Origin: a virus
Direction: 5' to 3' (one strand)
Virus record (IMG/VR): IMGVR_UViG_3300020190_000012
Location: 1-64,000 of that record
DNA: 64,000 bases
Shown: positions 17,305-63,978 of the stretch, piece by piece
Position numbering within the stretch: position 1 is the stretch's first letter
Layout of the letters: each line of letters begins with the position of its first letter
Notes under the pieces: model-generated
Told to the model about the DNA's origin: nothing
The model's input: the letters and a program-made list of their open reading frames with translations, nothing else
The model's database searches: none
Program-made: the position numbers and the translations under genes

Positions 17305-17306
17305 TT

Positions 17307-48349: not shown

Positions 48350-48401
48350 GTTGGGTTCCTTTACCCTTCTTTGGTGAAAAATCCTCTCAAGCCGTCGGTC
48401 T

Positions 48402-51400
48402 TCACTTGAAGACCCGACGCAGTACGTTGGTCTCAGTCTGATCTGCCAACTCCACCTGCTGCTGCAGTCGGAACATGGACGAGATCTTGGACTTGAGATC
48501 TCCATACGCATTACGCTCACTCTTCTGCTCGGGGATCACAAAAGCCGTTTCTGACCCTGCCGAGGCCGTCTTCAGGCCCTTGGCGACGACACCCTCTGCG
48601 AACATTGCCTTCTCAAGGTCCACGAGCTGAGCCACCTTGTAGCCCATCAACTCTTTGGCTTTTGCAGGCAGACTGTCTGCAGAGATCATCCCTGCAGCAA
48701 CCATCTTGCCAGCAACCTTGAGAGCCAACTCGCTGGAATCTTCACCAGCCTTCTTCTTTGCATAGCCGCCAACTGGACCGGACTTACCCGATCCAACCTG
48801 GCCGCCTGTCATTAGATTCTGCTTCTCTGCACCGTCCTGACCGCCAACCGGTATGGAAGGCAGGCTCAGACCTGCAGACTCGTTACCCTCTGGAACTTCA
48901 AGTTCTCCCATGCCTTCAAGACCTTCAGAGGTGCCCACGTCGCCAAGATCTTCCTGGTTCTGCACCAACTCGGTCTTGAGACCAAGCTCAGAGGCAAGCT
49001 TGGCCAATGAATCGGAGAATGCAGCCTTCTGGTTATGAAGCTTGCCAGAGGCAGATTTACCTGCTCCTTGGACACCGCCAGTGGCCATATTGCCCTTCTC
49101 TCCCTTGATCTTGTCGCCACTGAAGCTAGGACCATCAACGGGAACCTTGGGCATGTCTGCATCGAAGCCTTCGCCGTGCTCTCTGCTGAGCGGCTTGCCG
49201 CCGTTCTCAACGACCTTTGGCGATTTCAGACCAGCCTTGCCCGTCATGACGGTACCAAGTTCTGGCTGCTTCTGTGCATGACCTATCTCGACAGCCTTCT
49301 CTCCTGCCTCCTTGGTCAGGGCAGATGCAAGACGTGATATGTCAAGTTCCAACTTGCCTACGCCAACAACTCTGCCACGACGGAGGGCCATGGCCTCCTT
49401 CTCAATGTCGAAGGTCTCGTTTGACTTGGATTTGGCATAATTTGGAGCTGTCTTTTCCATGACTGCATCTTTCTCTTCTGTTTCTCCATTCGGATTATCG
49501 TCAGAAGAGTCTTCGTCAGAAGAGTCTTCGTCAGAAGAGTCTTCGTCAGAAGAGTCTTCGTCTTCAACAGTAGGTGACACCTCGACTGACTCTTCTTCAT
49601 CCACGTCTTCGACATCGTCGATGTCGTCGACCTCAACGGAATCTTCAGGCACATCCGTGCCAACATCATCAGACATCTCAGCCCCCATGTCGACCTCTGT
49701 GTCCATATCACTCTCATCTTCACTCCAAGCCTTAGTTAGAGCCTTCTGTATCTGCTCGTCAATCTGCTCAAGAACTTCTGGGGTCACATCGAGAGTGACG
49801 GAAATGGTCTTTTTGTCACCAGATTCAGAATCATCCTCGCCATCGAATGGATCGGATTCTTCCGTTTCATCCTGCTGTGACAAGTCAGTCTCTCCGTCGC
49901 CATCTGCGAGATCATCGGCGAGATACTCCTCGTCCTCTGCATAGGCAGCTTTGATCATCTCACAAGCATTGGAAGCCTGCTTGAGACCCATGCCTTCGCG
50001 GACAAGGTCCTCTACGCACTCGCACATAGGATCCGGCTGCGCCCAAGATGAGGCAACCTTGTCAGCCACGATTGTGCTGTACACATTCGCACCGGCAAGT
50101 TTGCTGCACACGCAATCTGGAAGGCTGTTTCCACGGCAAGGACCGCTGAGCGCCACGGAATCAGCGCCATACCTCCTGGCGAGTTTTTCCACGCACTCAT
50201 TCATTGGGAATTCACCATGCATGGTGAATGCCTTCTTGAATGAGCCAATTGCAGTCTCATCTTCAGAAGCTATCTTGACCTGCTTTACGGCACCCTTGCT
50301 GAGGGCTTCGTTCAAAACTTCGGCCTTCTTGACAACAGACATGCCGTCGAATGTTGCACGATCAACGCCAACTTCATTCAGGGCAGAATTAATAGATGCA
50401 CGCTTACGGGCGCAGCTGCTGCATGATGCCTTCTTAAACTCTGGCACCCATTCCCACTGAGCATACACATCCTTAGGAGAGGTGGTCGACGCGGCAAGAC
50501 GAACCTTGTACATCTGACCAGAGTCCAAGCACATCCATGTTTCGTTGTCAAGTTTGACGGTATTTCTCTCGCCAGTGATTGGGCTCACAGATCCTAGAGC
50601 ACCCTTGCTGGCGATCTTCCTGAGTGTTTCTGGAGTGATGCGGGTGGATGCAGCAACAGGAGGAAGCCCTGGTGCCCCTAGGGGTGGCATGCCGGGTGGC
50701 AGTTCGGCGCCAATCCCGCCAAGACCCTTATCTGGCTCTGCAGGGTTGTCGCCGCCAACATCCTCTTTGTCAATATCTCCGTCAGTGATATTGTCAAGAA
50801 GAGATGCATCTGGAATAACCTTGATGGTGAATCCACTGCCGCAACCCGGGCCTTTGCACTGGCTCTTGCCGCCAGCAACATCAACATCCTGGTTGCCACA
50901 CACGACGCAAACCGCAGCTGGTGGCTTGGCCTTGCCGAGGGTGTCTGTGTCGAGACCAAGAGGGTCTGTTGGCGCCGAAGCGGGAGCTCCAGGCATACCA
51001 GCGGGGGCCCCTGGTGCTGGCGGAGCGCCAGTCAGCGCCTCTGCGCCAGGCATGCCGGGAGGCATGGCACCTGGAACCGCAACACCAGCACCCATGCCTG
51101 CTGGATTTAGGGCGCTGGGCATGGCGCCTCCAACTTGAGCCTTCTTCTCAAGTCGCTCAATCTCCTCAAGCAACTTGGCACGACGAGATATCCTGTCTTC
51201 TCGAGAATCATAAGTCTCAGAAGATGCGACCGCGACCTTTGTCTTGGGGGCTTTCTTCATAGTGCTCTCCACATCGGATGCAAACTTGTGGTATGCCTCT
51301 TCCTCTGCAGAAGTGAGCATTTTTGCCTCCTTGACCACTGCCTCAACAATGCCATTGGCATCGTCGAAATCTATTGACATCGGTACAACATCAACACCAG

Positions 51401-54062
51401 GGAAGCGACTAGAGATCATGCCCTGAGCAAACTTGGTGACCTCCGCTATAAAGTTAATCTTATCTGATGGGTCTGCTGAAATGTCCTCGCCAACAGTGCA
51501 GCAAACCTTGTAGAGACCATCTTCAGGACGGAAGGCCTGGCGGATCGCGTCCTCAAATGAGGCATCCTTTGCCAGGGTTTCAGAAGCATCAGTTGCCATC
51601 TTGGTGGCCTGCTCGACAGCTAGGTCATTGTTCGCGCAGTGGATGAACGCCTGGATGGCATCCTCGGCAGTGACATTCTTGGCATTATCTGCGATGGAGG
51701 CCAAAACAAGGTCGATGGGCTCGGCCATGAGACCTGCAGAAGCACCCTTGGTCATCTCAGAGTTTCTTTCGGCAACTTCACGACGCTGAGACACAGTCCA
51801 AGGGGCTGCATTAATAGAAACCATGAAGGCAGCCTTGGCATGTCTTGATGGCTTGGCTGATATGTACTGCGCAACCTTGGAGATGTCGACGGGATCTAGA
51901 CCATAGATTGCAATGCCATCAGCAATAGAACGGGTTGCAATCTTGACAAGGTCAACTGTACTTGCCTTCTTGGCCATCGATCCGAGTTGAGCCTCTGTAA
52001 TTGCAGTTGGATCGACCCACTTGTGATCCTTACGGAGAATGTCGAGTTGGGCAGACTGAACATGGTCTGTCCAGTCTGCTGGTATCTTGGCAAGGATCTC
52101 GCGGGTTGCATCACCCCACTGACCCTCTGTGATCGTTTCTGGGAAAGAGTTCCAACGTGCCATGAATCCGTTGGATCCGCTAGCTAGTTGCATCTCTGTC
52201 GTGCCTTCGGATGATCCAGACCTCACCTGCGGTGATGCACTAGACACATCTTTGAACGCAGGCTTGGATGCACCAAGACGGCTGTCTGACTCGATGATTT
52301 CGGTGTACTCCGCACCGGTACGTGCGCCCATGCCATTGCCTTCGACAAACTGCCCTTCGATTATGGTGGAAGGAGAGTTGTCGGTGCGGTTTGAAGCTGT
52401 TTTAACGGTGCGGTTGTTAATGTCCAATTCAGGCTCCTTACTAGAGTTGATGTTTTCTTGTTTTTCAAGGGATGCAAGGATGATGAGGGCTGCGCCTTCT
52501 GGATCTTCAGCGATTGCACTCCTCAAGTTATGAGGAAACGCGTCTGCAGATGATGCTCTGACGACACGACCGTCAACAACTTCTGTTATAAACGATTCGC
52601 CGTCAGAGTCGGCGGATATCACAACAGAACAGTTGGCTGACGCGACCTTTGCAATGATTTGGTTCTGTGCCAAAAAATCCTCCGAGGGGAAATACTCGCC
52701 ATCTTCCACGCGGATGGCAAGTCCCTTGCCTCTAATATTGTTTTTTTTCCAAATCTCCTCCCCAAAAGCTGACCTTGGAATAAAAGTTGGCTTGGTAACC
52801 CTGCCTATGTCGTCACCCACATCCTGAAAAGACGGGGTTCCCAAAGATGGGGGTCTTGGGGAGGGTTGCTGAGGCATAGACATTGGGGCCGCTGTTGCAG
52901 GCGCCATTGCAGATGGGGTGGTTTGTGATATCTTTCCACCATCGACAGGCGATGCTGGTGCCGATGTCCCCCTTGCCATCTGTTCAGAAGATGGAGATGG
53001 CAACTGTGCATAACCCATTTCTATAAGTTCATCTGTGGTTTTTTGCACATTCGACATGACCTTAACAAGATCGCTGACATATTCCATAGAAACTGCCTGT
53101 TTTTGTGCCATCATGGACCTGGCAACACGCTCAAGCAGGTTCATTGCTTCATTCAACTCTCCAATTTCTTGTCGACCTGCCACTTTTTTCATTCCGCAAA
53201 CCCCGTCCTTGCAGAATGATTCCTCTGCCACCTTGCTAAACCCCTCGTTTACAGCCCTGACCCTCTCAACAAGGCTAGCAATCTTTTTGCGGACGCCTTC
53301 GGGGTTGAGTATTTCTTGCACGAGGCAATCATGGCATGCTGGATTGACCACAAAACTATCTTCGATAAATTTGACACCAAAATTGTGTTCAAAAATTTGT
53401 TGATCTTTATGTGTGTGGATCTTCTTTTCGCCCTTTTTGCAACCGCAAACTGGACAGGGCTCGTCGCCAGCATTGGGAGACTCATGATACTTACAGACAT
53501 GATCGCCATTGAAGCGCTTCTTCTTGCGCTCTTTGATATGTGAGCAAAATTCTTTTGCAGTTGCAGCTCTGTGATGGCATATGCTGCAGCATGAGTACTG
53601 TACTTGACAGCCCATGGATGTGCCGTTCACGTATCCCTGCTCTATGCCCCTAGCAAGCCTAGGGAAGGCCACGCGGTCAACCATGTTAATTGTATATATA
53701 CCGCCAGTGGAATCGTCGTACCATGCGTGTACAACCTTGCCCCTTGCCTTCTCGATGTCGTCATTTTGGTGGTTGACAAAGACCGGAACCCCGATGAACG
53801 TTTTGGCGGCACGCTTTAACTCAGTCTCACTGAACCAGTCGCCGTTGTCATTGACCTCATTCTTCTTTATTGCAAATACCTTAACAAATAAATGATCGGG
53901 GTGTTCCTTGACGGCTGCAGTTATGTCGAATCCGTTCAGGTCAGTACCAACCTTGGCCGCCTGTTTCTGCAGTGCTTCCGTGTTAAACTCATCCCAATCC
54001 TCGGGAACATTAAGAGCAGTAACCTGCCTCGACCCTGAAATGGAAAACTTGCTTGGAATCAT
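48402..54062 (-). CDS. Prohead maturation protease fused to a very long scaffold/core region
   Basis: NDNGDWF..EL..TFIGVPVFVNH, RGKVV, GTSMGC, CSICHH, FIEDSFVVNPA protease domain; then coiled-coil, Pro/Gly-rich and acidic regions; lies between portal and MCP. Confidence 0.85.
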   Translation of the reverse strand: MIPSKFSISGSRQVTALNVPEDWDEFNTEALQKQAAKVGTDLNGFDITAAVKEHPDHLFVKVFAIKKNEVNDNGDWFSETELKRAAKTFIGVPVFVNHQNDDIEKARGKVVHAWYDDSTGGIYTINMVDRVAFPRLARGIEQGYVNGTSMGCQVQYSCCSICHHRAATAKEFCSHIKERKKKRFNGDHVCKYHESPNAGDEPCPVCGCKKGEKKIHTHKDQQIFEHNFGVKFIEDSFVVNPACHDCLVQEILNPEGVRKKIASLVERVRAVNEGFSKVAEESFCKDGVCGMKKVAGRQEIGELNEAMNLLERVARSMMAQKQAVSMEYVSDLVKVMSNVQKTTDELIEMGYAQLPSPSSEQMARGTSAPASPVDGGKISQTTPSAMAPATAAPMSMPQQPSPRPPSLGTPSFQDVGDDIGRVTKPTFIPRSAFGEEIWKKNNIRGKGLAIRVEDGEYFPSEDFLAQNQIIAKVASANCSVVISADSDGESFITEVVDGRVVRASSADAFPHNLRSAIAEDPEGAALIILASLEKQENINSSKEPELDINNRTVKTASNRTDNSPSTIIEGQFVEGNGMGARTGAEYTEIIESDSRLGASKPAFKDVSSASPQVRSGSSEGTTEMQLASGSNGFMARWNSFPETITEGQWGDATREILAKIPADWTDHVQSAQLDILRKDHKWVDPTAITEAQLGSMAKKASTVDLVKIATRSIADGIAIYGLDPVDISKVAQYISAKPSRHAKAAFMVSINAAPWTVSQRREVAERNSEMTKGASAGLMAEPIDLVLASIADNAKNVTAEDAIQAFIHCANNDLAVEQATKMATDASETLAKDASFEDAIRQAFRPEDGLYKVCCTVGEDISADPSDKINFIAEVTKFAQGMISSRFPGVDVVPMSIDFDDANGIVEAVVKEAKMLTSAEEEAYHKFASDVESTMKKAPKTKVAVASSETYDSREDRISRRAKLLEEIERLEKKAQVGGAMPSALNPAGMGAGVAVPGAMPPGMPGAEALTGAPPAPGAPAGMPGAPASAPTDPLGLDTDTLGKAKPPAAVCVVCGNQDVDVAGGKSQCKGPGCGSGFTIKVIPDASLLDNITDGDIDKEDVGGDNPAEPDKGLGGIGAELPPGMPPLGAPGLPPVAASTRITPETLRKIASKGALGSVSPITGERNTVKLDNETWMCLDSGQMYKVRLAASTTSPKDVYAQWEWVPEFKKASCSSCARKRASINSALNEVGVDRATFDGMSVVKKAEVLNEALSKGAVKQVKIASEDETAIGSFKKAFTMHGEFPMNECVEKLARRYGADSVALSGPCRGNSLPDCVCSKLAGANVYSTIVADKVASSWAQPDPMCECVEDLVREGMGLKQASNACEMIKAAYAEDEEYLADDLADGDGETDLSQQDETEESDPFDGEDDSESGDKKTISVTLDVTPEVLEQIDEQIQKALTKAWSEDESDMDTEVDMGAEMSDDVGTDVPEDSVEVDDIDDVEDVDEEESVEVSPTVEDEDSSDEDSSDEDSSDEDSSDDNPNGETEEKDAVMEKTAPNYAKSKSNETFDIEKEAMALRRGRVVGVGKLELDISRLASALTKEAGEKAVEIGHAQKQPELGTVMTGKAGLKSPKVVENGGKPLSREHGEGFDADMPKVPVDGPSFSGDKIKGEKGNMATGGVQGAGKSASGKLHNQKAAFSDSLAKLASELGLKTELVQNQEDLGDVGTSEGLEGMGELEVPEGNESAGLSLPSIPVGGQDGAEKQNLMTGGQVGSGKSGPVGGYAKKKAGEDSSELALKVAGKMVAAGMISADSLPAKAKELMGYKVAQLVDLEKAMFAEGVVAKGLKTASAGSETAFVIPEQKSERNAYGDLKSKISSMFRLQQQVELADQTETNVLRRVFK
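49501..49560 (-). repeat. 15-bp tandem repeat x4 encoding DEDSS units
   Basis: TCAGAAGAGTCTTCG repeated four times, in frame in the acidic scaffold region. Confidence 0.9.
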
Positions 54063-54472
54063 GCCCTCACTGTCCTCGGGATTCTTACATTAGCCAAATG
54101 GGTCAATGTATAGTTGAACTGATTCTTAGGATATGGTATTCTGTATTTATCTGAAAGGAAAGACAGGGCCGAAGCAATGTTAGTAAAATATTTTCCATAC
54201 GGGCTGTAGACTTTAGACTCAAATTTCATCCAGTTGGATGGCAACTTTTTGATACCTGCAAAAAATGCCTTCTTGAGATCTTTGGTTCTCGCTGGCGAGC
54301 ATACAACATAATAGTCTGAGTTGGTGGTGTAGTCGTGGCCTTGCCATCTGTGGTATGCCCCAGAACCAATTTCCCTCTCGTATCTCTTCTTGAGAGGCTC
54401 GGTACGCTCAGTGTATACCTCTTCCCAATTGATGTTACGGTCACGTATCCTGCGTGCTGAAATCTTCAGCAT
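54059..54472 (-). CDS. Hypothetical basic, aromatic-rich protein between portal and protease
   Basis: Start likely MLKISARR at 54472; ATGA overlap with protease gene. Confidence 0.6.
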   Translation of the reverse strand: MLKISARRIRDRNINWEEVYTERTEPLKKRYEREIGSGAYHRWQGHDYTTNSDYYVVCSPARTKDLKKAFFAGIKKLPSNWMKFESKVYSPYGKYFTNIASALSFLSDKYRIPYPKNQFNYTLTHLANVRIPRTVRA

Positions 54473-56654
54473 GGGATGCACCTGTTGGTAAGAAAATGTC
54501 GGCCACATCTGTGGAAATGACACGAGGCTCTCCATCAGATAAAGATGCCGAAGTTTTGCCCAAAATCCTCCGCTCTTCTATCGCTTCTCTAATATTTGAC
54601 ATCACAACTTGAGCAACTTCGTCCACCCGACTGTTGAGGGCACCCTCTTTTATCCTTATAACCCGCCAACCAAGTTGTGCAAGTTTCATGTCTCTTGCTC
54701 GGTCACGCTCAATGGCTTCGGGATCTGAATGCCACATTTCTCCATCTGCCTCCACATCAACTCCGATTTGAGGATATGCAAAATCTAGAAGGAATGGCTG
54801 TCTCTGACCTGGCATGTACTGCTGGAATTGTGCAAAAAGTGGGTACGGAACCGCAAGTTGGTTGAGGATCGATGCCAACTTCTGCTCCGGCTTTGTCAAA
54901 AATATCTTCGTAGGCTGTGGAGGTTTGGGCATATCTTTTGCCTTTGGCCCCTTGCCCTTCTTAAATATCTTTCCTGACAAAATGGATGCGGCTGCCGCCA
55001 TGGGCGGAGCACCAGGGTTGCCACCCATGGCAGGAATTGCCGATGGAGCACCACCAGGCGGAGACATCCCCAAATCCATCGGCGGTGCACCTCCGCCCAT
55101 GGGGGCTGGAGCAGGCGGCGCACCACCACCAGCACCTCCCAATCCGCCCATTATGCTTCCTAGGTCTCCGATTCCGCCGCCGCCACCGCCGCCACCAGGC
55201 TGTCCGCCAAGAACCTGACCTCCAGTACCCGCCATAACCTGTTCTTCCCTGATGCGTGCAACCTCAATATCAAAGTCTATATCAAATGTATCAAGCAACT
55301 TTTGCCTGCTGATAACCTGCTTGTCATACAACTGAATAATCTTGTTCAACGATTCAGAGTTGTCACGAAGACGAAGATCGTTCCATTTTATTCTTGGATA
55401 CAGCCATACAGTTTCGTTCAACTGCTTCGATTTTACTGTGTCAACAAAACCCTGCATTTGAGCAACGGGTAAGAATATGTTTCTTTCTGCCCACTGTGCC
55501 AACTCCATACGCCAGGTTTCAAGTCTTCTGATGAGGGTCTCCACGCCAACAGCAGCACCAGAATAAGCCTGCATCTCTCCGTTGAGCAAGGTCTGGTTGA
55601 GCATTAGACCGTCAAGCATCTCCTTGCCGACATATTCGAGCTGATTGCTTATATCGTGGATTTTGCCAGTTGCACCCTCCCAAGTCATCTCGAATGCATG
55701 GTGAGTAACAATGGTCAAATTTGGATCATTTGCCACTGCAGCAAGTTGAGCCTGCACATCTGCAATATCCATCTCATTTGCAGGGCGCTCGGCAGTGCCA
55801 ACCTTTACTATTCTTATTGGCAATATATGACGCTCTGCCACGATCCAGTTCGCTGTCATCAACTTGGTTTTGTATGCAATCGTCATGAAGAGTCGACGCA
55901 GCAATGACTCTCCATAAGTTCCATAAGGACTCCCCTTATGTCGCAAATGACTCACGCAGCGCGGACTAAGAGGTATGGCCTGCCCGGCGGCAACAAGGTC
56001 ACGAACCTGCGGAGATATCTTGTCATAGATATCCTTTGGCTTCTTCTGCTGCACCACTCTGCGTAGATCATCATCTGGCAACATGGCAATTGTTGGGTGG
56101 TCGGCAAGTTGCGTGTTTTGAACCTCAACGAAATCTGGATTGAGGATCATCAGTCTTTTGAATGTTCCGCCCGGATGGTTGCATATCGTGCCGTCAGGAA
56201 GGTTTGTCCTACCTCCGCACACTGGGCAGTCTATTTCCAAAAACACGAAAACATCACCAAGCAAAAAATATTCGTGCGATATCTTTCTGAACCAGTGATC
56301 AAGGTTGAGTTTTTCAACCATGTGCTCAAAATAGTTCAAGACCTTTCGATCTCTGCACTCCAGTTTGAATCCATTCATGGGGAATGTTGCATAGAAATCT
56401 ATACCACCAGCAGCCTTTGGCTCGTTTTCGTAATAGAAACGCGCCCACTGGTACACTTCCTTGCGTCTGCTTGCTATCTGCCAACTCTGCGGAGTGTGCA
56501 GAGGAGAGAAAAACATCGGCTGGGTGAATATGGTGGACACATTCCCACCAACATATTGAGCCGCCTTGGTCAGCGGCAGCGGAACTATAGTTCCGTTTGC
56601 ATATGTCTTGTTGTCCACCATCGATTCACTACTTGCGTTTTTCTTGGTTGCCAT
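54441..56654 (-). CDS. Portal protein with C-terminal DUF559/Vsr-like endonuclease domain
   Basis: WARFYYENEP..IDFY..FP, EYFLLGDVF, ILNPDFVEV, YGESLLRRLF, IRIVKVG portal motifs; Gly/Pro linker; then LDFAYP..VEADGEMWH..DRARD..L..LGWRVIRI. Confidence 0.85.
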   Translation of the reverse strand: MATKKNASSESMVDNKTYANGTIVPLPLTKAAQYVGGNVSTIFTQPMFFSPLHTPQSWQIASRRKEVYQWARFYYENEPKAAGGIDFYATFPMNGFKLECRDRKVLNYFEHMVEKLNLDHWFRKISHEYFLLGDVFVFLEIDCPVCGGRTNLPDGTICNHPGGTFKRLMILNPDFVEVQNTQLADHPTIAMLPDDDLRRVVQQKKPKDIYDKISPQVRDLVAAGQAIPLSPRCVSHLRHKGSPYGTYGESLLRRLFMTIAYKTKLMTANWIVAERHILPIRIVKVGTAERPANEMDIADVQAQLAAVANDPNLTIVTHHAFEMTWEGATGKIHDISNQLEYVGKEMLDGLMLNQTLLNGEMQAYSGAAVGVETLIRRLETWRMELAQWAERNIFLPVAQMQGFVDTVKSKQLNETVWLYPRIKWNDLRLRDNSESLNKIIQLYDKQVISRQKLLDTFDIDFDIEVARIREEQVMAGTGGQVLGGQPGGGGGGGGIGDLGSIMGGLGGAGGGAPPAPAPMGGGAPPMDLGMSPPGGAPSAIPAMGGNPGAPPMAAAASILSGKIFKKGKGPKAKDMPKPPQPTKIFLTKPEQKLASILNQLAVPYPLFAQFQQYMPGQRQPFLLDFAYPQIGVDVEADGEMWHSDPEAIERDRARDMKLAQLGWRVIRIKEGALNSRVDEVAQVVMSNIREAIEERRILGKTSASLSDGEPRVISTDVADIFLPTGASHAEDFSTQDT

Positions 56655-56684
56655 GAGATGATGTCCTATAGTGGTTTTTCGTCA

Positions 56685-56870
56685 TCATGCCTGCACGGCA
56701 ACAACTTGAGCTAGAGACGCTCCACAGTTAACACAATTAGACGCTGTTGCGTTGTTACAGCTCCTACAAACTGGACAATTTTTCTTCCAGCCTGCCATTG
56801 GCTTTTTCTTCTCACCATCTCTGAACGGGGTCGAGAGGGGGTCGAATGCGGCAGTTTTAGATGCCGTCAA
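56685..56870 (-). CDS. Zinc-ribbon ORF, probably a -1 frameshift extension of the upstream gene
   Basis: CPVC..CVNC; only a TTG start; in the -1 frame of an A AAA AAG site. Confidence 0.55.
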   Translation of the reverse strand: MTASKTAAFDPLSTPFRDGEKKKPMAGWKKNCPVCRSCNNATASNCVNCGASLAQVVAVQA

Positions 56871-57838: not shown

Positions 57839-58476
57839 TTGAATTGTTTACCTTTAAGCGCTTCGAACATTCTTGTGACGGCACTAACATCAGAAGACGA
57901 AGGCCTTCTTGATGCATGCTTTGATGCCAAAGAGTCAAACATGGAAGCAGCCATATCTCTGCTGTTGACTGGAGACTTCGGCTGAGCCACCTCACATTCA
58001 ACAGTTGGCTTGGCAACCATCGGAGCATCCTTGATGTGGGAGAATGCCTCCTTGTCAAAGATGCTAACAGAGTCGTTGCGAATGAGACCTCTGCCGCCAG
58101 ATTTGCCAGAAAGAGATGAGACATGAGCGGCCATCCGCTCCGCAGAGGTGGGCAAGGGTTCTTCCTCCTTGACAGCATGCTCATTCACACTATCGGCAGC
58201 CACCCGTGGAGCAGGTGGGTCCTTAAGCCCAAATAGGGTGTCTGATGCGGCCTTTACTCCAAGGCTCCCAACATGCCCACCTGCATCAATTGTGTGTGAG
58301 CCTAAAAGCCTATTACGGAGCAATCCTCCCTCGGAAACCTCGGTCTCAGGAGAGCCAGCCACTTTACGAGCAAAGTTTTCAAGCCAAGAAGGCCGAGAAG
58401 CTTCTTCTGCTAGCTTTTCAACTTTGTTCCCAAAAAGTTCAGACCGACCCTCATTTTGATTTTTGAAAATTCTCAT
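57835..58476 (-). CDS. Hypothetical K-x-A-motif protein
   Basis: Overlap-coupled; KLAE, KVAG, KAAS, KEAF, KHAS. Confidence 0.6.
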   Translation of the reverse strand: MRIFKNQNEGRSELFGNKVEKLAEEASRPSWLENFARKVAGSPETEVSEGGLLRNRLLGSHTIDAGGHVGSLGVKAASDTLFGLKDPPAPRVAADSVNEHAVKEEEPLPTSAERMAAHVSSLSGKSGGRGLIRNDSVSIFDKEAFSHIKDAPMVAKPTVECEVAQPKSPVNSRDMAASMFDSLASKHASRRPSSSDVSAVTRMFEALKGKQFK

Positions 58477-59081
58477 ATGCGGAAACCTGCTTTCTTCAGG
58501 GCATCTGCCATGGCAGATTTCCTCATCATGAAGGCATCATGATGTGCCGAAGCAGCCTTTGCGATGGCATCTCCTGCAAGATCTGCAAACGAATCGTTTT
58601 CGGTGGAAGGCTGGACGGCTTTGGGCTTTTTGCTGCTGAAATTGACTATATAGTTACGACCCTCATGACTCATATTTCCCTCCAAGCCAAATGCCTCACA
58701 GATCTGACCTGCAATTTGTGAAGCATGAGACTCTGTGATACGAGATTTTGCAGTCGCTGAAGGTATCATGAAAGATCCACTTAACTCACCTGACCCAATC
58801 GAAGATATCTGCCGAAAGATTTTCTTAGAGACCTTCGGGTCTGTCAAATGTCTTGGTTCAACACCAAGACCTTCCAAGACTGCAAAAACATACTCCCTCA
58901 AAGACTTCTCTCTGCCCTCATTCGATGCAGGCGCCTGATCCTGTGACGGGGCGGGCAGAGGAGCTGAACTGCCCGTATCCATGTATACAGACCCCATTTC
59001 AGGCTGAGGGATCTGCTCGTCTGCCAACTTAAAAAGCTGGCTCTGCATATGCCTGCGTCGGCCCACCGGCAGGAAAGACAT
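58473..59081 (-). CDS. Hypothetical K-x-A-motif protein
   Basis: GGAG RBS; LFKLAD, IAKAAS. Confidence 0.6.
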   Translation of the reverse strand: MSFLPVGRRRHMQSQLFKLADEQIPQPEMGSVYMDTGSSAPLPAPSQDQAPASNEGREKSLREYVFAVLEGLGVEPRHLTDPKVSKKIFRQISSIGSGELSGSFMIPSATAKSRITESHASQIAGQICEAFGLEGNMSHEGRNYIVNFSSKKPKAVQPSTENDSFADLAGDAIAKAASAHHDAFMMRKSAMADALKKAGFRI

Positions 59082-59084
59082 CGT

Positions 59085-59696
59085 TCAGTTCTCCGTGTCA
59101 AGAACGGCGTCTATGAAGTCCTTGGGCCAAATGTTGGACCAGTATGAACGGAACTTGCCCTTCTGCTTGTCGGTGAGATTGGCTATCTTGACAAACTTCG
59201 GATGCTCAGATGAAGTCTTCGGCCGACGAGGAGGATTGCTATGCGGCCTGTAGGCATTTCCTATCTCCTCTTCCTCGCCACCAGAATCAGATGCGCAGGA
59301 TGAGTCTGACTCCTTTGTGCCATAACCGCAGCCAGCGGCAGCAACAGCACCCATGGCCTCTGTGATCTCTTCATCAGCGTGGTCGTCTTCAATATCCACA
59401 TCGGTCTCGTCATCGCTGGAATTGGCAAGAACGAGCAAGACCTCGTCGTCATTTACCTTGATCACGTCGGCAATCTTGCTGAAGCCATCGGATTCGGCTT
59501 CCTTGGGCTTCTTTTTGCGCTCATTGATCTTGTCCTTGATGAAGGCAGGCAATTCTTTCTTAGCCTCCTTCTCTAGGACTTCTGGCGCATCGACTGCAGA
59601 TGCCTGCTTACTCATCCCACCTGTAACGTCCCGAATGATGTCATTAAAACTTCGGGACGGCCCATTGACTGATATTTTATTGCTGAAGAACTTCAT
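59085..59696 (-). CDS. Hypothetical acidic K-x-A-motif protein
   Basis: AAAGGAG RBS before MKFFSNK at 59696; KQAS, KEAK, KIAD, FVKIANL. Confidence 0.65.
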   Translation of the reverse strand: MKFFSNKISVNGPSRSFNDIIRDVTGGMSKQASAVDAPEVLEKEAKKELPAFIKDKINERKKKPKEAESDGFSKIADVIKVNDDEVLLVLANSSDDETDVDIEDDHADEEITEAMGAVAAAGCGYGTKESDSSCASDSGGEEEEIGNAYRPHSNPPRRPKTSSEHPKFVKIANLTDKQKGKFRSYWSNIWPKDFIDAVLDTEN

Positions 59697-59733
59697 ATTT
59701 GCTCCTTTGTTGTTCTTTTCTCTTAAACCCCAA

Positions 59734-60324
59734 TCACACCTCGTCAGGGAGTGATGCTTTGGTAATTTCCCACGCCTCATCTCTCAAGCAAGAAGCTGCC
59801 ACACGCAGCCTGCCTGCTGTCGAAGGATCTTTCGATTGTATGGAAGAGGCAACTTTTCCCATTTCGTTTGAACATCGAACCAGTCTGTCCGGAATGGCTA
59901 TTGCGTGCTCTGCAACTGCCTCTGGAATGGCAATCCTCTCTGGAGTTCCAGAAGCCATCTTTGCTTCAATTATGGTCTGAAGATTGAAATCCCCACCCAT
60001 TGGTTCTTTTTCCCATGAACCATCAGAAGATGCGTACTTGTTCCAGGTCTTCACGTCGCCAGAAATTGCAGATACATATTCACTGTGACACTCGCTCCAC
60101 GCCTCCTGTGGACGCATGCCCTGTGCACGCTTGTGTCTAAAACATCCCTGCCAGCACCTGCTGTTGCGCACAGCCACCCCTTGTATGCCCATGTACTGAG
60201 CGGTTTTGACCATAGAGAGGTCAGACGCAATATCGTCAAGTCTAACCGCCTGTGGATGATTACCATTAGCGTCAAGTCCGTTGGCAATGAGAACAATGTC
60301 CTTGATGATATTTGATAGTTCCAT
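59734..60324 (-). CDS. Hypothetical K-x-A-motif protein
   Basis: IANGLDANG..A..LD helical N-terminus; MVKTAQY, KYAS, KMAS, KVAS; CWQGC. Confidence 0.65.
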   Translation of the reverse strand: MELSNIIKDIVLIANGLDANGNHPQAVRLDDIASDLSMVKTAQYMGIQGVAVRNSRCWQGCFRHKRAQGMRPQEAWSECHSEYVSAISGDVKTWNKYASSDGSWEKEPMGGDFNLQTIIEAKMASGTPERIAIPEAVAEHAIAIPDRLVRCSNEMGKVASSIQSKDPSTAGRLRVAASCLRDEAWEITKASLPDEV

Positions 60325-60328
60325 GACT

Positions 60329-61171
60329 TCAAGTAACTACGAATTTACGCGTAAATGTCCTGCTCGGGAAAGAAAATCTGACTATTCTGGTCAATAAATA
60401 ATTTCTAGGCGCTCCAACCGTTGTGTCCCATGAAACAACCACCTGTCTGCGGCTGGCTTCAGAAAAATGCATATCGTGAGGTTCAATCTCCCTTGAAATA
60501 ATTTTGCCGCCCTCTGTCAAATATTCTATAAGCATAGACTGCCTGTTTGCCACAGACCACCTGACTGCATCACCAACTCCTGAAAAATTTGGGACTGCAA
60601 CAGATATAGAAACCTGAGAATCTGCTGCAGACCTGGCTGGATCCGTGACTATTTGGGCTCTATCTGCGGGAACCTCATCTGCCTGAGGAGGCGGGGTCGA
60701 AGCAACATCCTCCCCTTCTGACGATTGTCTGATCTCTGCAAAATCAACACGATCTGGGTCCAAGGACGTCAGTGGCATCTTTTGGGCGAGTTTATAGCTT
60801 CTGTTAAATATGCAGCAGGGTTGGACGCCATCTGTATTGAGATGACACTCATCGCCAACCCTGAATCCATTCTTGGAAAGCCAGCCATCGGGCAACTCAA
60901 CGACCAAACTACACGGCTCAGAAGACGAAACCGATGTCAAATCATGAGGTCTTATCCTGCCAACTGTGACAATTTTACCAAATGGATTTACAAAAGCTAT
61001 GTCCAATGGCAGAAATGTGTTCATACCCCAAAAACTATGTCGCTCTGGCCTGTCAAATACAAAAGCCATGCCATGCCCGTCTTCTAGCTCATGCCTGAAC
61101 ATCAAACCTCTTTCTCTGAGATGTGGCTTATCTGCCAATTCAACCACAACTCGAGAAAATTGGTTATTCAT
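60329..61171 (-). CDS. DUF192 domain fused to WYL-like domain
   Basis: VELAD..RERGLMFR..GMAFVF..FWGMNTFLPLDIAFV..VVELPDG (DUF192); IEYLTEGG..SREIEP..VVSWD..PRNYLLTRI (WYL-like). Start likely 61171. Confidence 0.8.
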   Translation of the reverse strand: MNNQFSRVVVELADKPHLRERGLMFRHELEDGHGMAFVFDRPERHSFWGMNTFLPLDIAFVNPFGKIVTVGRIRPHDLTSVSSSEPCSLVVELPDGWLSKNGFRVGDECHLNTDGVQPCCIFNRSYKLAQKMPLTSLDPDRVDFAEIRQSSEGEDVASTPPPQADEVPADRAQIVTDPARSAADSQVSISVAVPNFSGVGDAVRWSVANRQSMLIEYLTEGGKIISREIEPHDMHFSEASRRQVVVSWDTTVGAPRNYLLTRIVRFSFPSRTFTRKFVVT

Positions 61172-61382
61172 ACTCGGAGACACGAAAGCCCCCACGAACA
61201 AGACGATCTGCGAAGTCCTCGCACTCATTCTCGTCATCAAATTCTAGGCGATATCCAGATCCGTGACGAAAAACATCGGCCCCAACGCCGCGAGCCCGCC
61301 TAAGCGCCTCATCTAGACTCCAGGAGCGCTCAAAAGAACCTGAAGGTCTTGTGGGTCTGTCTTTCAGTATGCAAACTCTCAT
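61164..61382 (-). CDS. Small hypothetical protein
   Basis: 72 aa, overlap-coupled. Confidence 0.5.
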   Translation of the reverse strand: MRVCILKDRPTRPSGSFERSWSLDEALRRARGVGADVFRHGSGYRLEFDDENECEDFADRLVRGGFRVSEYE

Positions 61383-61741
61383 CGGCGTGCAATCCCAGTT
61401 TTGACTGTGTTCTTGATAGCAAAAACACAGTCGTCGTCATTCAGAATGACCGCTTCTAGAAGCCGCTTACCGTTTGCGGTAATCTTTATTGTTTCCCCAT
61501 GCCATTCTGCAAATCCCAAACTCTCGAGATTGATGAGTTCATCAGTTCTCAAACCAAACGGCCTTTTAAACGTAAGGGGCTCTATCCCAGCTTCTCCAGA
61601 CTTGAAAAGTGAATACAAAACCTTTGCCGCCTTGCCCTTAGGGTCGCCAAGTCCAGATATTGCAGACCCCGACCTCTCGCGCATGATGAAATCAAGTATA
61701 GAACTGTTTGCGGTTTTTAGATTCATCCCAAGTGTTTCCAA
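61379..61741 (-). CDS. Winged-helix-like small protein
   Basis: ELINLESLGFAE..IKITANGKRLL wing signature. Confidence 0.5.
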   Translation of the reverse strand: METLGMNLKTANSSILDFIMRERSGSAISGLGDPKGKAAKVLYSLFKSGEAGIEPLTFKRPFGLRTDELINLESLGFAEWHGETIKITANGKRLLEAVILNDDDCVFAIKNTVKTGIARR

Positions 61742-62604
61742 AGGTATTCCCTGTACTTGTACGGACTTTCATTCTTCGCATTATCTATAAGATATGGCTC
61801 TGTTGCCAACTCTCTCCAGTAGAATCCGGGTCTGAAACGAGGCTCATTATATGCCTCAGTCCAAGAGCGATATCTGTGTTGGCTCTTGCGAGCGATCGAA
61901 TCACCCTCAATGCTCTCCTCTATGTCCCTCCAGGGGATCACACGATCACCCATTGGAAGATCTAGGCGACCCCACGGGCCATCCATCACGGAAGCAATCT
62001 TTTTAGATAACGAAGCAGTGAACAACCTGTGCTTATACGAAAGGCGCGCAATCATGTACTCATGAAGAGATATTTTGGAAAGCAGCGCAGATATTTCCGA
62101 ACAAGCAGGAGTGGGAAGTTTTGCCACATCGAATGAAGCCATGAAGTTTCTTATGATTTCATGCTTCACCTGATCATTCAACCGATCCTTGGCTGACATG
62201 GTGCACAATCCTTCAAGAGCACATACCGCCATCCTTGAGCCGACTACAGAACACGAACCGGCAGAAGGAATAGATTCAAGCACGTTACAAAGTGCTGTCC
62301 AAAGATCTTCAAGCACAATGGCCAATTCATCAGCCCTCTTGGAAAGAGCTGGTTGATAATCTGAGGCAAGAACCTGCATCTGAATCTGTGGATCAAAAAC
62401 AACATCGACGCCAACCTTAACGCCGAGTCGTGCGAGTTCTATCTTTGCATGATCAGGACTTATTGTTGGAGTTGCCATCGCATTTTGCTCCCACCAGCGA
62501 ACTGGCATAGCCACTGTCATAGAGCAGAGTAAAATAACGGCACAATTTCTTGCGGTTTTTCGTCCTAAGATTCTTAAGTACACGCGTGAATTTGTCCGTT
62601 GCAA
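61723..62604 (-). CDS. Hypothetical protein (start uncertain, may be 62478)
   Basis: Long ORF; KKIASVMDGPWGRLDLPM..PW C-terminal segment. Confidence 0.55.
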   Translation of the reverse strand: MQRTNSRVYLRILGRKTARNCAVILLCSMTVAMPVRWWEQNAMATPTISPDHAKIELARLGVKVGVDVVFDPQIQMQVLASDYQPALSKRADELAIVLEDLWTALCNVLESIPSAGSCSVVGSRMAVCALEGLCTMSAKDRLNDQVKHEIIRNFMASFDVAKLPTPACSEISALLSKISLHEYMIARLSYKHRLFTASLSKKIASVMDGPWGRLDLPMGDRVIPWRDIEESIEGDSIARKSQHRYRSWTEAYNEPRFRPGFYWRELATEPYLIDNAKNESPYKYREYLWKHLG

Positions 62605-62614
62605 TTCTAACCAT

Positions 62615-63136
62615 TCAGCCTATCTCCGTGTTCATAATCCCAAATATGGAATCATCAACAACTGCTTCCTTGGATTTCTTAGTTCTAGACACTTTGCGCG
62701 TGACCTTCTTTTCTGACCGTGATGGCTTGTCTTTCTTTGCGATTTTCTGGTCACTGGCCGCATCGGAAGAAACTGAAGCCACCAAAGAAGAGCATGACAA
62801 ATGTCCAGCACTCACAAGTTTCATGGCAGTCTCTATGTTAGGATCAGACTTCTTCAAAATGAAACACTGCTTGGGAGCTAGTGTTCTCTTCAAAAAAGAG
62901 ATCGTTAGGCCGCCACTCTTGGCATTCGAGAACTCTACTTCGTCCTCGGATGTCTTACTAGATATATCTTCATTCGCAGAATCGAATGATATGTAGCCCT
63001 TCTTCTTCGCCCACAGTACACTTGGATGAAATGCAAATTCGTCTGGCAAATCAACAACAGTACCAGGCTTGAACTTATTCTTGATCGAAGACAAAACCAA
63101 TTCACCTTTTAGTGTTTCAGAAACTATTACTTTCAT
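62615..63136 (-). CDS. Protein with two copies of the shared ~55-aa module and a basic tail
   Basis: GELVLSSI..PGTVVDLP..HPSVLWAKKKGYISF and SNAKSGGLTISFL..LAPKQ..KLVSAGHLS. Confidence 0.6.
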   Translation of the reverse strand: MKVIVSETLKGELVLSSIKNKFKPGTVVDLPDEFAFHPSVLWAKKKGYISFDSANEDISSKTSEDEVEFSNAKSGGLTISFLKRTLAPKQCFILKKSDPNIETAMKLVSAGHLSCSSLVASVSSDAASDQKIAKKDKPSRSEKKVTRKVSRTKKSKEAVVDDSIFGIMNTEIG

Positions 63137-63579
63137 ATCTTTCTTCTCCTGTGTAACATTTTTTCCATGCTGCCCGAATTGGGAGCACCCTCAAATATGG
63201 TTCTTCCACGAGAAACTGGAGACGATGGGTCTGCCCATGTTCCGTCATTAGTTCCCTCTTGATATTCAGTCTCGCCTTCAAGTCTTTCTCGACCAGAGAA
63301 CGGATCCTCTGGGTCACCATAGTCAAAATCATGATTATATCTGTACTCATGATCGCCAATGCCCTGCTCCCAAAGCAAAAAGTCAGAGGCCATGTCAGGA
63401 GGTTCTCCGGCAACACCCTGAGACATAGGCGTTGTAAATTTATAACCCTCTCCGCTATTGGGGCCCCGATGCAATTTATATGGATCAACCCTATCAAAAG
63501 GGCGAAGAAGCGTGTTCGGCACAGTTGTGCCGAGGTTGGCAACCTTGACCAGCCAACTGTGGCTCTCAAGGCGGAGCAT
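63133..63579 (-). CDS. Hypothetical low-complexity protein
   Basis: Overlap-coupled; WLVKVAN near N-terminus. Confidence 0.55.
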   Translation of the reverse strand: MLRLESHSWLVKVANLGTTVPNTLLRPFDRVDPYKLHRGPNSGEGYKFTTPMSQGVAGEPPDMASDFLLWEQGIGDHEYRYNHDFDYGDPEDPFSGRERLEGETEYQEGTNDGTWADPSSPVSRGRTIFEGAPNSGSMEKMLHRRRKI

Positions 63580-63582
63580 CAG

Positions 63583-63978
63583 TTACCCAATAACCATATA
63601 GGAAGACAATATGGTTTTCTTGCGACTGTTAAGCTCTGATATTTCAGACACTTCGTCTCTATGCAACTGTCTTTCCTCTGAAGCAGCAGCTAGCCTGATT
63701 TCAAAAAGCCTTCTGTCGATCGCAAACAGATTGGACTGAGCTTCTTTGATGACAACATCTTTGTTTATGTTCTTTAGGTTGGATGGCGCATCTTCAACTG
63801 GGAGATGGCCAGTGTTCTCGATGCGCCCTGCCCTGTTGACAACAAGAGAATCGTCTGCATCCACAGGATCAACATTAGGTTTACCTGTGTTGAAGTGTAG
63901 GGAAAACAGGTCTCTCTCACCCTTCTCTGCCTCTGCGTATGCCTTCCTGAATTTTTGGTCAAAGGCCTCACTTGCCAT
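63583..63978 (-). CDS. Hypothetical protein
   Basis: 131-aa ORF in the same operon; VIKEAQ. Confidence 0.5.
   Translation of the reverse strand: MASEAFDQKFRKAYAEAEKGERDLFSLHFNTGKPNVDPVDADDSLVVNRAGRIENTGHLPVEDAPSNLKNINKDVVIKEAQSNLFAIDRRLFEIRLAAASEERQLHRDEVSEISELNSRKKTILSSYMVIG

What the first reader, a model, noticed from the sequence alone, without database searches (positions are those of the whole stretch)
48402..63978. Pervasive K-x-A-[S/Q] motif marks head-region proteins: candidate maturation-cleavage code
Seen: by hand count about 45 K-x-A in the 1886-aa protease-scaffold (roughly 15 expected from rough composition), about 20 of them K-x-A-S/Q (KIAS, KVAS, KTAS, KKAS, KVAQ, KFAS, KKAQ, KQAS, KLAS). 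They often sit at domain boundaries. The motif recurs near N-termini or in linkers of the portal (LTKAAQY) and most upstream small genes (FNLSKVAQ, VKTAS, FNLTKQAS, MSKQAS, MVKTAQY, YKLAQ, NLKTAN, LVKVAN, IKEAQ). Established: T4 gp21 and phiKZ gp175 cut many head proteins at short motifs ending in Glu. Inference: this protease cuts after K-x-A, the giant ORF is a polyprotein, and the tag identifies packaged inner-head cargo genome-wide.
Basis: partly seen in the sequence, partly recalled or inferred. Interest (0 to 1): 0.8.

Follow-up and report, generated by a model that had tools for sequence, protein, structure and literature searches.

The report
Lys-x-Ala cut-site code, megaphage head
A giant-phage fragment related to Bacillus phage G marks its 1,886-residue capsid protease-scaffold protein, its portal and several small head proteins with a conserved Lys-x-Ala-(Ser/Gln) motif that is most likely where the phage's own capsid-maturation protease cuts, although no cut has been measured.

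Summary
The 1,886-aa ORF (48402-54062, minus strand) has 46 K-x-A against 15 expected. It has 20 K-x-A-[S/Q] against 1.8 expected, and 0 of 500 shuffles reached 20. K.A ranks first of 1,200 residue-pair patterns in the giant ORF. It also ranks first, independently, in the 13 other head-block proteins, but not in tail proteins. The motif is 7.9 times denser in the head block than in the rest of the 130-kb record. All 24 aligned homologues, 33 related loci and cultivated phage G share the enrichment. Lys and Ala stay fixed while the middle residue varies, and sites turn over. Arg does not replace Lys, and Ser or Gly do not replace Ala. The N-terminus is a prohead protease flanked by conserved sites. 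The best reading, at about 70%, is a self-processing protease-scaffold with a P3-Lys/P1-Ala cleavage code. This is a new specificity for a known kind of system. Sites are not enriched at predicted domain boundaries. The tag is confined to the head block rather than spread genome-wide. Cleavage itself is inferred. This scan has already reported the same motif on other genomes.

The parts
48402..54062 (-). 1,886-aa protease-led scaffold-like polyprotein. It holds 46 K-x-A, of which 20 are K-x-A-[S/Q].
   Evidence: Searches give the ORF and the counts. PHROG hits phrog_2774 (6.7e-30) and phrog_18299 'head maturation protease' (3e-14) fall on residues 37-185. One search found a family of about 1,900-aa homologues.
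53277..53957 (-). Prohead protease domain, about residues 36-262. His98 and Ser149 are invariant.
   Evidence: One search gives the PHROG hits. tblastn matches phage G gp19 (8e-26) and Rhodococcus phage E3 gp77 'prohead protease' (8e-19). It also matches jumbo-phage 'head maturation protease' genes at E down to 7e-7. H98 and S149 are invariant in 24 of 24 sequences.
53955..53966 (-). Site K33-Q-A-A, just N-terminal of the protease domain.
   Evidence: K and A are kept in 23 of 23 homologues. P2 takes 11 different residues and P1' is Ser in 19 of 23. The site lies in the pLDDT<50 segment 1-40.
53274..53285 (-). Site K260-I-A-S, just C-terminal of the protease domain (release-site-like).
   Evidence: K and A are kept in 20 of 23 homologues. 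Phage G gp19 has EKVAS and LKIAS at the same place after its protease domain.
52392..52403 (-). Site K554-T-A-S in a long low-confidence linker.
   Evidence: K and A are kept in 23 of 23 homologues. The site lies in the pLDDT<50 segment 536-633.
49899..50666 (-). Confidently folded Cys-rich domain (residues 1133-1388) holding 13 K-x-A, including the invariant K1149-I-A-S, K1263-I-A-S and K1335-V-A-S.
   Evidence: pLDDT is about 80-93. None of its sites is near a low-confidence segment. No known fold was found.
48561..48572 (-). Site K1831-T-A-S, 52 residues before the conserved C-terminus (maturational-site-like).
   Evidence: K and A are kept in 13 of 23 homologues, and the preceding K-G-L is invariant. 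The site lies in the low-pLDDT segment 1823-1852. The split scaffold genes of L021 and L024 carry KEAS at the same distance from their ends.
54441..56654 (-). Portal protein (Mu-like) with a C-terminal DUF559/Vsr-like domain. The N-terminal site P-L-T-K30-A-A-Q-Y precedes the conserved core.
   Evidence: Pfam Portal_Mu and DUF559 hit, and phrog_16240 at 2.1e-40. T-K-x-[A/S]-Q is conserved in the orthologues with an intact N-terminus, directly before TQPMFFSPLHTPQNWQI. In most orthologues a K-x-A-[S/N] site precedes the last 25-45 residues; in this window it is degenerate.
56867..57838 (-). 323-aa head-block protein. It has the leader V-K-F-N-L-S-K-V-A-Q at residues 1-10, plus KTAS and F-N-L-T-K-Q-A-S at residues 165-180.
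   Evidence: One search shows the sites. F-N-[LF]-x-K-x-[A/S]-Q is conserved across the aligned set (window protein plus 23 orthologues). Many orthologues carry about 100 extra residues upstream of it. The orthologue set holds 74 K-x-A-[SQ] against 7.2 expected.
57835..58476 (-). 213-aa head-block protein with KAAS (75) and KHAS (186).
   Evidence: The orthologue set has 17 K-x-A against 8.3 expected.
58473..59081 (-). 202-aa head-block protein with KAAS (175).
   Evidence: The orthologue set has 27 K-x-A against 11.4 expected.
59085..59780 (-). 231-aa Lys-rich head-block protein with KQAS (58).
   Evidence: The orthologue set has 107 K-x-A against 46.9 expected.
59734..60324 (-). 196-aa protein with five K-x-A-[SQ] (residues 40, 65, 96, 122 and 157).
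   Evidence: 5 observed against 0.16 expected. The K-x-A-Q-Y and K-Y-A sites are invariant across the 12 aligned sequences (window protein plus 11 orthologues), and a further site sits in an indel-rich loop.
60329..61240 (-). DUF192 + WYL protein with a single K-L-A-Q between the two domains.
   Evidence: The orthologue set shows no significant enrichment (13 vs 9.3).
61379..63978 (-). Further small head-block ORFs with leader-like sites: M-N-L-K-T-A-N, KIAS at residue 202, L-V-K-V-A-N, and I-K-S-A-S plus I-K-E-A-Q. The last ORF runs on to 64350, and the large terminase follows at 64278-66164.
   Evidence: The terminase is identified by phrog_2 at 2.1e-27. ORF 62615-63136 has no site.
46834..48352 (-). 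Negative controls in the same module: the HK97-fold major capsid protein (46834-47739, likely start at Met13) and the putative decoration protein (47768-48352, from Met57).
   Evidence: The capsid protein hits NCBIfam capsid_Caudo_2 at 8.2e-57 and is 52% identical to phage G gp27. Capsid orthologues hold 0 K-x-A-[SQ] against 3.2 expected. Decoration orthologues hold 1 against 1.1.

Best explanation
The N-terminal domain of the 1,886-aa ORF (about residues 36-262) is a capsid-maturation (prohead) serine protease. The short motif [Leu/Met]-x-Lys-x-Ala-[Ser/Gln, less often Gly/Asn/Phe] is its recognition and cleavage signal. Inside the assembled prohead the protease would free itself at the conserved flanking sites (K33, K260/K293). 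It would chop the rest of its own scaffold-like polypeptide at many sites. It would detach the conserved C-terminal tail at K1831, trim the portal, and remove leaders from or fragment the small proteins encoded between terminase and portal. What is shown: enrichment, head-module restriction, residue specificity, conservation and site turnover, and the protease homology. What is inferred: that the motif is cut, that the bond is Ala|Ser (Lys at P3, Ala at P1), and that the fragments leave or stay in the capsid.
For: Enrichment is strong and restricted to the head module. The signal is residue-specific. In scans over 12 head proteins, only Lys works at the first position (10.9x, Arg 0.3x). Only Ala works at the third (10.9x, Ser 1.2x, Gly 0 observed). 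Ser (10.9x) and Gln (11x) are preferred next, and Leu/Met are 3-4x enriched two residues before Lys. All 24 of 24 homologues (34-91% identical) carry 11-23 K-x-A-[SQ] against 1.3-2.1 expected. Sixteen site clusters are kept in at least 20 of 24 sequences, with Lys and Ala fixed and the middle residue free. Distant homologues have 10-17 sites of their own, so total density is maintained by turnover. In 33 related loci the giant ORFs hold 339 against 45.4 expected and the upstream head genes 274 against 56.6. Downstream ORFs hold 35 against 15.7, and 20 of those 35 lie in three split scaffold ORFs. Capsid and decoration orthologues show no enrichment. Conserved sites bracket the protease domain here and in phage G gp19. 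In phage G, K.A ranks 1 of 1,200 patterns in gp4-gp21 (53 vs 25.9) and 318 in the flanking proteins. Established precedent comes from passages read. T4 gp21 cuts after L/I-x-E, cuts scaffold proteins into many fragments and removes 10-residue targeting leaders. SPN3US gp245 cuts after A-x-E. Herpesvirus assemblin, an N-terminal protease fused to a scaffold, cuts after Ala at sites such as YLQA-T and VQA-S (passages read).
Against: There is no proteomic or biochemical evidence of cleavage for any member. The phage G supplements that I could read hold no peptide-level data, and the 2020 phage G structure and mass-spectrometry paper is not held. Conserved sites are not enriched in predicted linkers (8 of 16 against a 60% baseline). 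Thirteen K-x-A sit in a confidently folded domain, several of them in helices, so some conserved instances may be structural. Examples are K83 inside the protease fold and K-L-A inside the DUF559 fold. The assemblin-like fold of the protease could not be confirmed. The model had pLDDT 53, the fold searches were uninformative, and no sequence match to a solved structure was found. The composition model underestimates the background about 2-fold. The related protease-led protein of mycobacteriophage Cali shows no clear K.A signal (14 vs 7.0, rank 7).
Confidence: 0.7

Rival explanations
1. The motif is a short linear motif with a non-proteolytic role. It could be a docking or capsid-targeting signal bound by the scaffold, portal or capsid interior. 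It could also be a site of Lys or Ser modification, since the module also encodes glycosyltransferases.
For: The conservation pattern fits any recognition motif. Many sites lie in folded parts. Three GT4-type glycosyltransferase genes lie in the structural region.
Against: The motif brackets the protease domain and saturates the protease's own polypeptide, which mirrors known prohead-protease substrates. Leaders of very different length end at the same motif, which fits removal better than docking. The glycosyltransferase genes lie among tail and capsid-surface genes, not among the tagged internal proteins.
Confidence: 0.12
2. The sites are cut, but by another protease: a host enzyme or one of the two phage subtilases (Peptidase_S8 at 41792-42592 and 1-1917).
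For: Two S8 domains lie in the window. S8 genes also occur in 3 of the 4 related IMG/VR records searched.
Against: The complete phage G genome has no S8 match yet shows the K.A signal. The most complete related record of those searched (88% by CheckV) also has none. The motif is shared by phages of a Bacillus-type host and by uncultured relatives, which argues for a phage-borne enzyme common to all of them, namely the prohead protease.
Confidence: 0.08
3. The excess is a structural or compositional by-product, for example helix-capping or helical periodicity in Lys/Ala-rich proteins, or shared ancestry of the head proteins. No enzyme would read it.
For: About half of the conserved sites are in confidently predicted structure. 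Background K-x-A-[SQ] is about 2x expectation outside the head block as well. Some instances are clearly part of folds (K83, and the DUF559 K-L-A).
Against: Shuffles that keep composition never reach the count. The Ala/Lys-rich 910-aa protein has 12 K-x-A against 10.3 expected. Arg cannot replace Lys, and Ser or Gly cannot replace Ala. The flanks of the 40 instances share little beyond Leu/Met at P5, so paralogy does not explain the signal. Sites turn over while density is kept.
Confidence: 0.1

Closest known systems
Phage T4 prohead protease gp21 with its substrates, and the phiKZ gp175 / SPN3US gp245 systems
   Same: A head-module serine protease reads a three-residue P3-x-P1 motif. The scaffold and core proteins are cut many times, the portal and internal proteins lose propeptides, short N-terminal leaders end at the motif, and the protease trims itself (passages read in PMC9026906, and PMC10052503). 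The protease domain here gives weak tblastn matches to jumbo-phage genes annotated as prohead core or head maturation protease.
   Different: The specificity would be Lys at P3 and Ala at P1 instead of Leu/Ile or Ala/Ser/Gly at P3 and Glu at P1. The major capsid protein carries no site and no delta domain. The protease is fused to about 1,600 further residues. Nothing has been shown experimentally here.
Herpesvirus assemblin precursor (pUL26: N-terminal protease fused to scaffold, with release and maturational sites)
   Same: The order is N-terminal protease then scaffold. One conserved site lies directly after the protease domain and another near the conserved C-terminus. Ala precedes the presumed scissile bond, often followed by Ser. 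Pseudorabies virus sites are given as YLQA-T and VQA-S (passages read in PMC4498786).
   Different: No sequence or confirmed fold match to assemblin was found. Lys is required two residues before Ala. There are dozens of sites rather than two to four. No conserved internal start for a nested scaffold gene was found. A predicted contact between the C-terminal tail and the capsid protein was not obtained.
Bacillus phage G head module (gp1 terminase ... gp14 portal ... gp19 protease ... gp26/gp27)
   Same: The gene order is the same. The capsid protein is 52% identical and the protease domain 34% identical. The same K.A enrichment is confined to gp4-gp21, and sites flank the gp19 protease domain.
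   Different: In phage G the protease is a 300-aa protein followed by separate genes, not a 1,886-aa fusion.
Cluster C mycobacteriophage protease-led giant proteins (e.g. Cali gp93, 1,286 aa, directly upstream of the capsid gene)
   Same: An N-terminal homologous protease domain (32% identical) is fused to a long C-terminal part, in the same position before a small gene and the capsid gene.
   Different: No convincing K.A enrichment was found (14 vs 7.0, rank 7 of 1,200), so the code is not shared by the whole protease family.

Membership tests
Prohead (capsid-maturation) serine proteases of tailed phages (T4 gp21 / phage G gp19 type) | Sequence similarity to proteins annotated or shown to be prohead proteases | tested here: met
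   phrog_18299 'head maturation protease' hits at 3e-14. Rhodococcus phage E3 gp77 'prohead protease' matches at 8e-19. Jumbo-phage 'head maturation protease' genes match at E 7e-7 to 2e-4. Pfam gave no hit at E<=0.01. NCBIfam gave only a weak hit, NF045541 at 0.0017.
Prohead (capsid-maturation) serine proteases of tailed phages (T4 gp21 / phage G gp19 type) | Conserved catalytic His and Ser | tested here: met
   His98 (in V-N-H-Q-N) and Ser149 (in G-T-S-M-G) are invariant in 24 of 24 homologues and present in phage G gp19. Their catalytic role is inferred.
Prohead (capsid-maturation) serine proteases of tailed phages (T4 gp21 / phage G gp19 type) | Assemblin-like fold | tested here: inconclusive
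   The model of residues 1-1010 has mean pLDDT 53. Foldseek and VIA-align gave no meaningful match to the protease part. No sequence match to solved structures was found.
Prohead (capsid-maturation) serine proteases of tailed phages (T4 gp21 / phage G gp19 type) | Gene placed between the portal and major capsid genes | tested here: met
   The order is portal 54441-56654, protease ORF 48402-54062, capsid 46834-47739.
Prohead (capsid-maturation) serine proteases of tailed phages (T4 gp21 / phage G gp19 type) | Demonstrated cleavage of head proteins at a defined motif | not testable with these tools
   This needs virion mass spectrometry or an enzyme assay. No peptide-level data were found in the supplements that I could read.
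Herpesvirus-type protease-scaffold precursor (pUL26-like) | N-terminal protease fused in one chain to a scaffold, with a release site after the protease and a maturational site near the C-terminus | tested here: inconclusive
   The architecture and the conserved sites at K260/K293 and K1831 fit. Scaffold function is inferred from position only.
Herpesvirus-type protease-scaffold precursor (pUL26-like) | Nested in-frame gene giving free scaffold | tested here: inconclusive
   Eight internal ATGs have a Shine-Dalgarno-like word upstream. The best candidate, Met1558, has too short a spacing and is not conserved. No expression data were examined.
T4-type capsid-targeting leaders on internal head proteins | Short N-terminal leader ending at the protease motif | tested here: met
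   Examples are 56867-57838 (motif at residues 7-10), the portal (30-33), 61379-61741 (M-N-L-K-T-A-N), 63133-63579 (L-V-K-V-A-N) and 63583-64350 (I-K-S-A-S after an internal Met). The first two are conserved in orthologues.
T4-type capsid-targeting leaders on internal head proteins | Leader-dependent packaging into the capsid and ejection | not testable with these tools
   No virion proteome exists for this uncultured phage.

The most novel reading that the evidence does not exclude
The phage G clade of giant phages uses a herpesvirus-like Ala|Ser cleavage chemistry with an added Lys at P3. The 1,886-aa ORF would then be a true polyprotein. Besides destroying its scaffold parts, it would release stable products into the capsid as functional internal or ejected proteins. 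These would include the folded Cys-rich domain at residues 1133-1388 and the zinc-ribbon module, together with the leader-tagged small proteins. The motif would become a sequence-only predictor of capsid cargo in uncultured megaphages.
Probability: 0.25. Interest if true: 0.75.

Novelty: new variant of a known kind. Interest (0 to 1): 0.52.

Why it matters
Prohead-protease cleavage codes are known for only a few phage groups, and the phage motifs read in the papers here all end in Glu. A Lys-x-Ala code would add a new specificity. It would link phage and herpesvirus maturation proteases by their P1-Ala preference. It would allow head-processed proteins of uncultured megaphages to be read from sequence alone. 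It would also give engineers a candidate leader for loading proteins into giant capsids. It is directly testable because phage G, which shares the signal, is in culture. My four searches for such a motif found no published description. The 2020 phage G mass-spectrometry paper could not be read and may bear on this.

Tried and rejected
1. A DNA-level repeat as the cause is rejected. The 40 instances use 40 different 12-mers and mixed codons.
2. 'Sites sit at domain boundaries' was tested with two AlphaFold models and is not supported.
3. Fold identification of the protease and of the Cys-rich domain gave no significant or informative match. I ran Foldseek against the PDB and VIA-align wide.
4. 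Sequence and profile searches of solved structures returned nothing relevant.
5. I submitted a complex prediction of the capsid protein with the last 107 residues of the giant ORF. It returned 'no answer' (score 0.22, mark 0.32), which is neither for nor against binding.
6. A nested scaffold gene was looked for and no convincing conserved internal start was found.
7. Subtilases as the responsible protease are unlikely, because phage G has none.
8. Extension of the code to cluster C mycobacteriophages is not seen in Cali.
9. Peptide-level evidence was sought in the phage G multi-omics paper. Its supplements hold annotation and promoter tables only. The main-text passages mention protein detection, not termini.
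10. González et al. 2020 (phage G structure and mass spectrometry) is not held.
11. A resemblance of the F-N-L-x-K-x-A-[Q/S] leaders to the N-terminal cleavage leader of ribosomal protein L27 and some staphylococcal phage head proteins is only recalled. I did not test it and do not rely on it.
12. A second possible tagged cluster at 75078-80745(+) has 6 sites against about 1.5 expected. It is weak once the 2x background is allowed for, and its proteins have no family matches.
Full report
WHAT THE WINDOW IS. The window is the first 64 kb of a 130,267-bp IMG/VR virus record that CheckV rates 29% complete. Nearly all genes lie on the minus strand. The order is: large terminase (64278-66164, phrog_2 at 2.1e-27); about twelve small ORFs; a Mu-like portal (54441-56654); a 158-aa ORF; the 1,886-aa ORF (48402-54062); a putative decoration protein; then an HK97-fold capsid protein (46834-47739, NCBIfam capsid_Caudo_2 at 8.2e-57). 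Tail genes follow. The capsid protein is 52% identical to gp27 of Bacillus phage G. Phage G has the same gene order.

The giant ORF has 46 K-x-A against 15.0 in 500 shuffles. It has 20 K-x-A-[S/Q] against 1.8, and no shuffle reached 20. I ran a scan that does not presuppose the motif, covering all 1,200 a-b, a.b and a..b pairs. K.A came first in the giant ORF (p 1.7e-10). It also came first, separately, in the 13 other head-block proteins (42 vs 18.0, p 1.0e-6). It was not among the top 12 patterns in 27 tail and other proteins.

Over the whole record, 14 head-block ORFs hold 40 K-x-A-[SQ] against 4.1 expected. The other 105 ORFs hold 35 against 17.6. The composition model therefore underestimates the background about two-fold, which I state as a caveat. 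Against the empirical background the head block is still 7.9-fold denser (p 1.4e-22). Only four ORFs reach p<0.01 for K-x-A-[SQ], and all four lie in the head block. The 40 instances are encoded by 40 different 12-mers with mixed codons, so the signal is at the protein level.

SPECIFICITY. Position-by-position scans over 12 head proteins give a sharp picture.
- First position: only Lys is enriched (10.9x); Arg is at 0.3x.
- Third position: only Ala is enriched (10.9x); Ser is at 1.2x and Gly was observed 0 times.
- Fourth position: Ser 10.9x and Gln 11x, then Phe 4.8x, and Gly and Asn 3.3x.
- Two residues before Lys: Leu and Met are 3-4x enriched.
Otherwise the flanks are unremarkable, so the instances are not copies of one repeated module.

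COMPARATIVE EVIDENCE. A word-indexed search found 61 relatives. Most are about 1,900 aa long and some are longer because they carry inteins. They sit on contigs of up to about 500 kb. I aligned 24 of the 61 (those without intein domains and with near-full coverage), spanning 34-91% identity. All 24 carry 11-23 K-x-A-[SQ] against 1.3-2.1 expected.

Lys and Ala are both kept in at least 20 of 23 homologues at sites 33, 260, 293, 554, 698, 973, 1149, 1263, 1276, 1335 and 1584. The middle residue varies freely; at site 33 it takes 11 different residues. Sixteen site clusters are shared by at least 20 of 24 sequences. Distant homologues have 10-17 sites of their own, so density is kept by turnover.

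In 33 related IMG/VR loci the giant ORFs hold 339 against 45.4 expected, and the genes upstream of them hold 274 against 56.6. Downstream ORFs hold 35 against 15.7, and 20 of those 35 lie in three split scaffold ORFs. Orthologue sets of the portal and of ORFs 56867, 58473, 59085 and 59734 are strongly enriched. The sets for the capsid protein (0 vs 3.2), the decoration protein (1 vs 1.1), the 158-aa ORF and ORF 62615 are not.

In the portal, T-K-x-[A/S]-Q sits directly before the conserved core, after an N-terminal stretch of variable length and sequence. In ORF 56867, F-N-[L/F]-x-K-x-[A/S]-Q is conserved across the 24 aligned sequences (the window protein and 23 orthologues). The part upstream of it ranges from nothing, as here, to about 100 residues. 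That is the behaviour expected of a removable propeptide.

In cultivated phage G, K.A ranks first of 1,200 patterns in gp4-gp21 (53 vs 25.9). It ranks 318th in the flanking proteins. The phage G gp19 protease has sites on both sides of its catalytic domain. The related 1,286-aa protease-led protein of mycobacteriophage Cali shows no convincing signal (14 vs 7.0, rank 7). The code therefore belongs to the phage G clade, not to the whole protease family.

WHAT THE GIANT ORF IS. Residues about 37-185 match PHROG families that include 'head maturation protease'. tblastn links residues about 30-260 to phage G gp19, to Rhodococcus phage E3 gp77 'prohead protease', and weakly to jumbo-phage prohead proteases. 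His98 and Ser149 are invariant. In three distant relatives the protease (463-470 aa where complete) and the remainder (1,621-1,732 aa where complete) are separate genes, and in phage G the protease is a 300-aa protein. The fusion is therefore one of several arrangements.

AlphaFold models, built on a shallow 15-row alignment, reach mean pLDDT of only 53 and 56. They show long low-confidence linkers, a zinc-ribbon-like module, and a confident Cys-rich domain at 1133-1388. Fold searches identified none of these.

First, conserved sites are not enriched near low-confidence segments (8 of 16 against a 60% baseline). The folded domain 1133-1388 alone holds 13 K-x-A, several of them in helices. Some are probably structural, as are K83 in the protease core and the K-L-A of the portal's DUF559 domain. 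Second, the tag is not genome-wide on the DNA available. A weak second cluster at 75078-80745 remains open. Third, nothing shows that the small tagged proteins are packaged.

MECHANISM PROPOSED. I draw the analogy from systems whose passages I read. T4 gp21 cuts after L/I-x-E, fragments the core proteins, removes 10-residue targeting leaders and probably trims both of its own ends. SPN3US gp245 cuts after A-x-E. Herpesvirus assemblin is an N-terminal protease fused to a scaffold, with release and maturational sites that end in Ala. On that basis I propose that the protease domain recognises Lys at P3 and Ala at P1 and cuts before Ser or Gln.

The proposed events are these. The protease frees itself at K33 and at K260/K293. 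It degrades the scaffold-like remainder and severs the conserved C-terminal 52 residues at K1831. It trims the portal. It processes the leader-bearing small proteins.

The rivals are a non-proteolytic recognition motif, another protease, and a structural by-product. Each is weighed in its own section. The subtilase idea is weakened because phage G has no S8 gene.

NOVELTY AND STANDING. I found no description of such a motif in four literature searches. The key phage G mass-spectrometry paper could not be read, and the supplements that I could read lack peptide data. This scan has reported the same Lys-x-Ala motif several times on other genomes, including a 1,904-residue relative. Those are unchecked AI notes. 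My tests here agree with them independently. I rate the finding a new variant of a known kind: real, well supported computationally, and testable in phage G.

Noticed in passing
window 54441-56654 (portal residues about 590-700); L005, L010, L012, L019, L023: The portal carries a C-terminal DUF559/Vsr-like endonuclease-type domain after a Gly/Pro-rich linker. The domain is present in all five related portals scanned. Four of those five portal genes are much longer because they also hold LAGLIDADG/Hint inteins.
   Followed up: partly
P0013, P0021, P0022, P0024, P0031, P0033, P0034 and others; L022-L034 giant ORFs of 2,200-2,370 aa: Many homologues of the giant protease-scaffold ORF carry intein domains (Intein_splicing, LAGLIDADG_3, Hint). 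The essential head genes of this phage group seem to be intein hot spots.
   Followed up: no
window 34357-35517 (-): A 386-aa protein matches Pfam Volactin (2.9e-57), an actin-like family. It lies within the head-tail structural region next to a PhoH-like ATPase (38616-39305).
   Followed up: no
window 1-1917 (-) and 41792-42592 (-): Two subtilisin-like (Peptidase_S8) proteins lie in the structural module. S8 genes recur in 3 of 4 related IMG/VR records but are absent from phage G.
   Followed up: partly
G000:C1:75078-80745 (+), outside the window: Five adjacent small plus-strand ORFs of unknown function hold six K-x-A-[SQ] (about 1.5 expected), one of them at residues 3-6 of its protein. This may be a second tagged gene cluster, but it is weak once the 2x background is allowed for.
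   Followed up: partly
window 4609-12585 (-), 13648-17304, 17576-21556, 21537-26138: There is a run of very large tail-region ORFs (2,658, 1,218, 1,326 and 1,533 aa) with almost no family matches, apart from an RCC1-like repeat in the largest. Three GT4 glycosyltransferase genes are interspersed in the structural region.
   Followed up: no
L039 (mycobacteriophage Cali) 15352-19212: Cali gp93 is annotated 'tape measure' in the record. It starts with the homologous prohead-protease domain and sits directly before a small gene and the major head protein, so the annotation looks wrong.
   Followed up: partly
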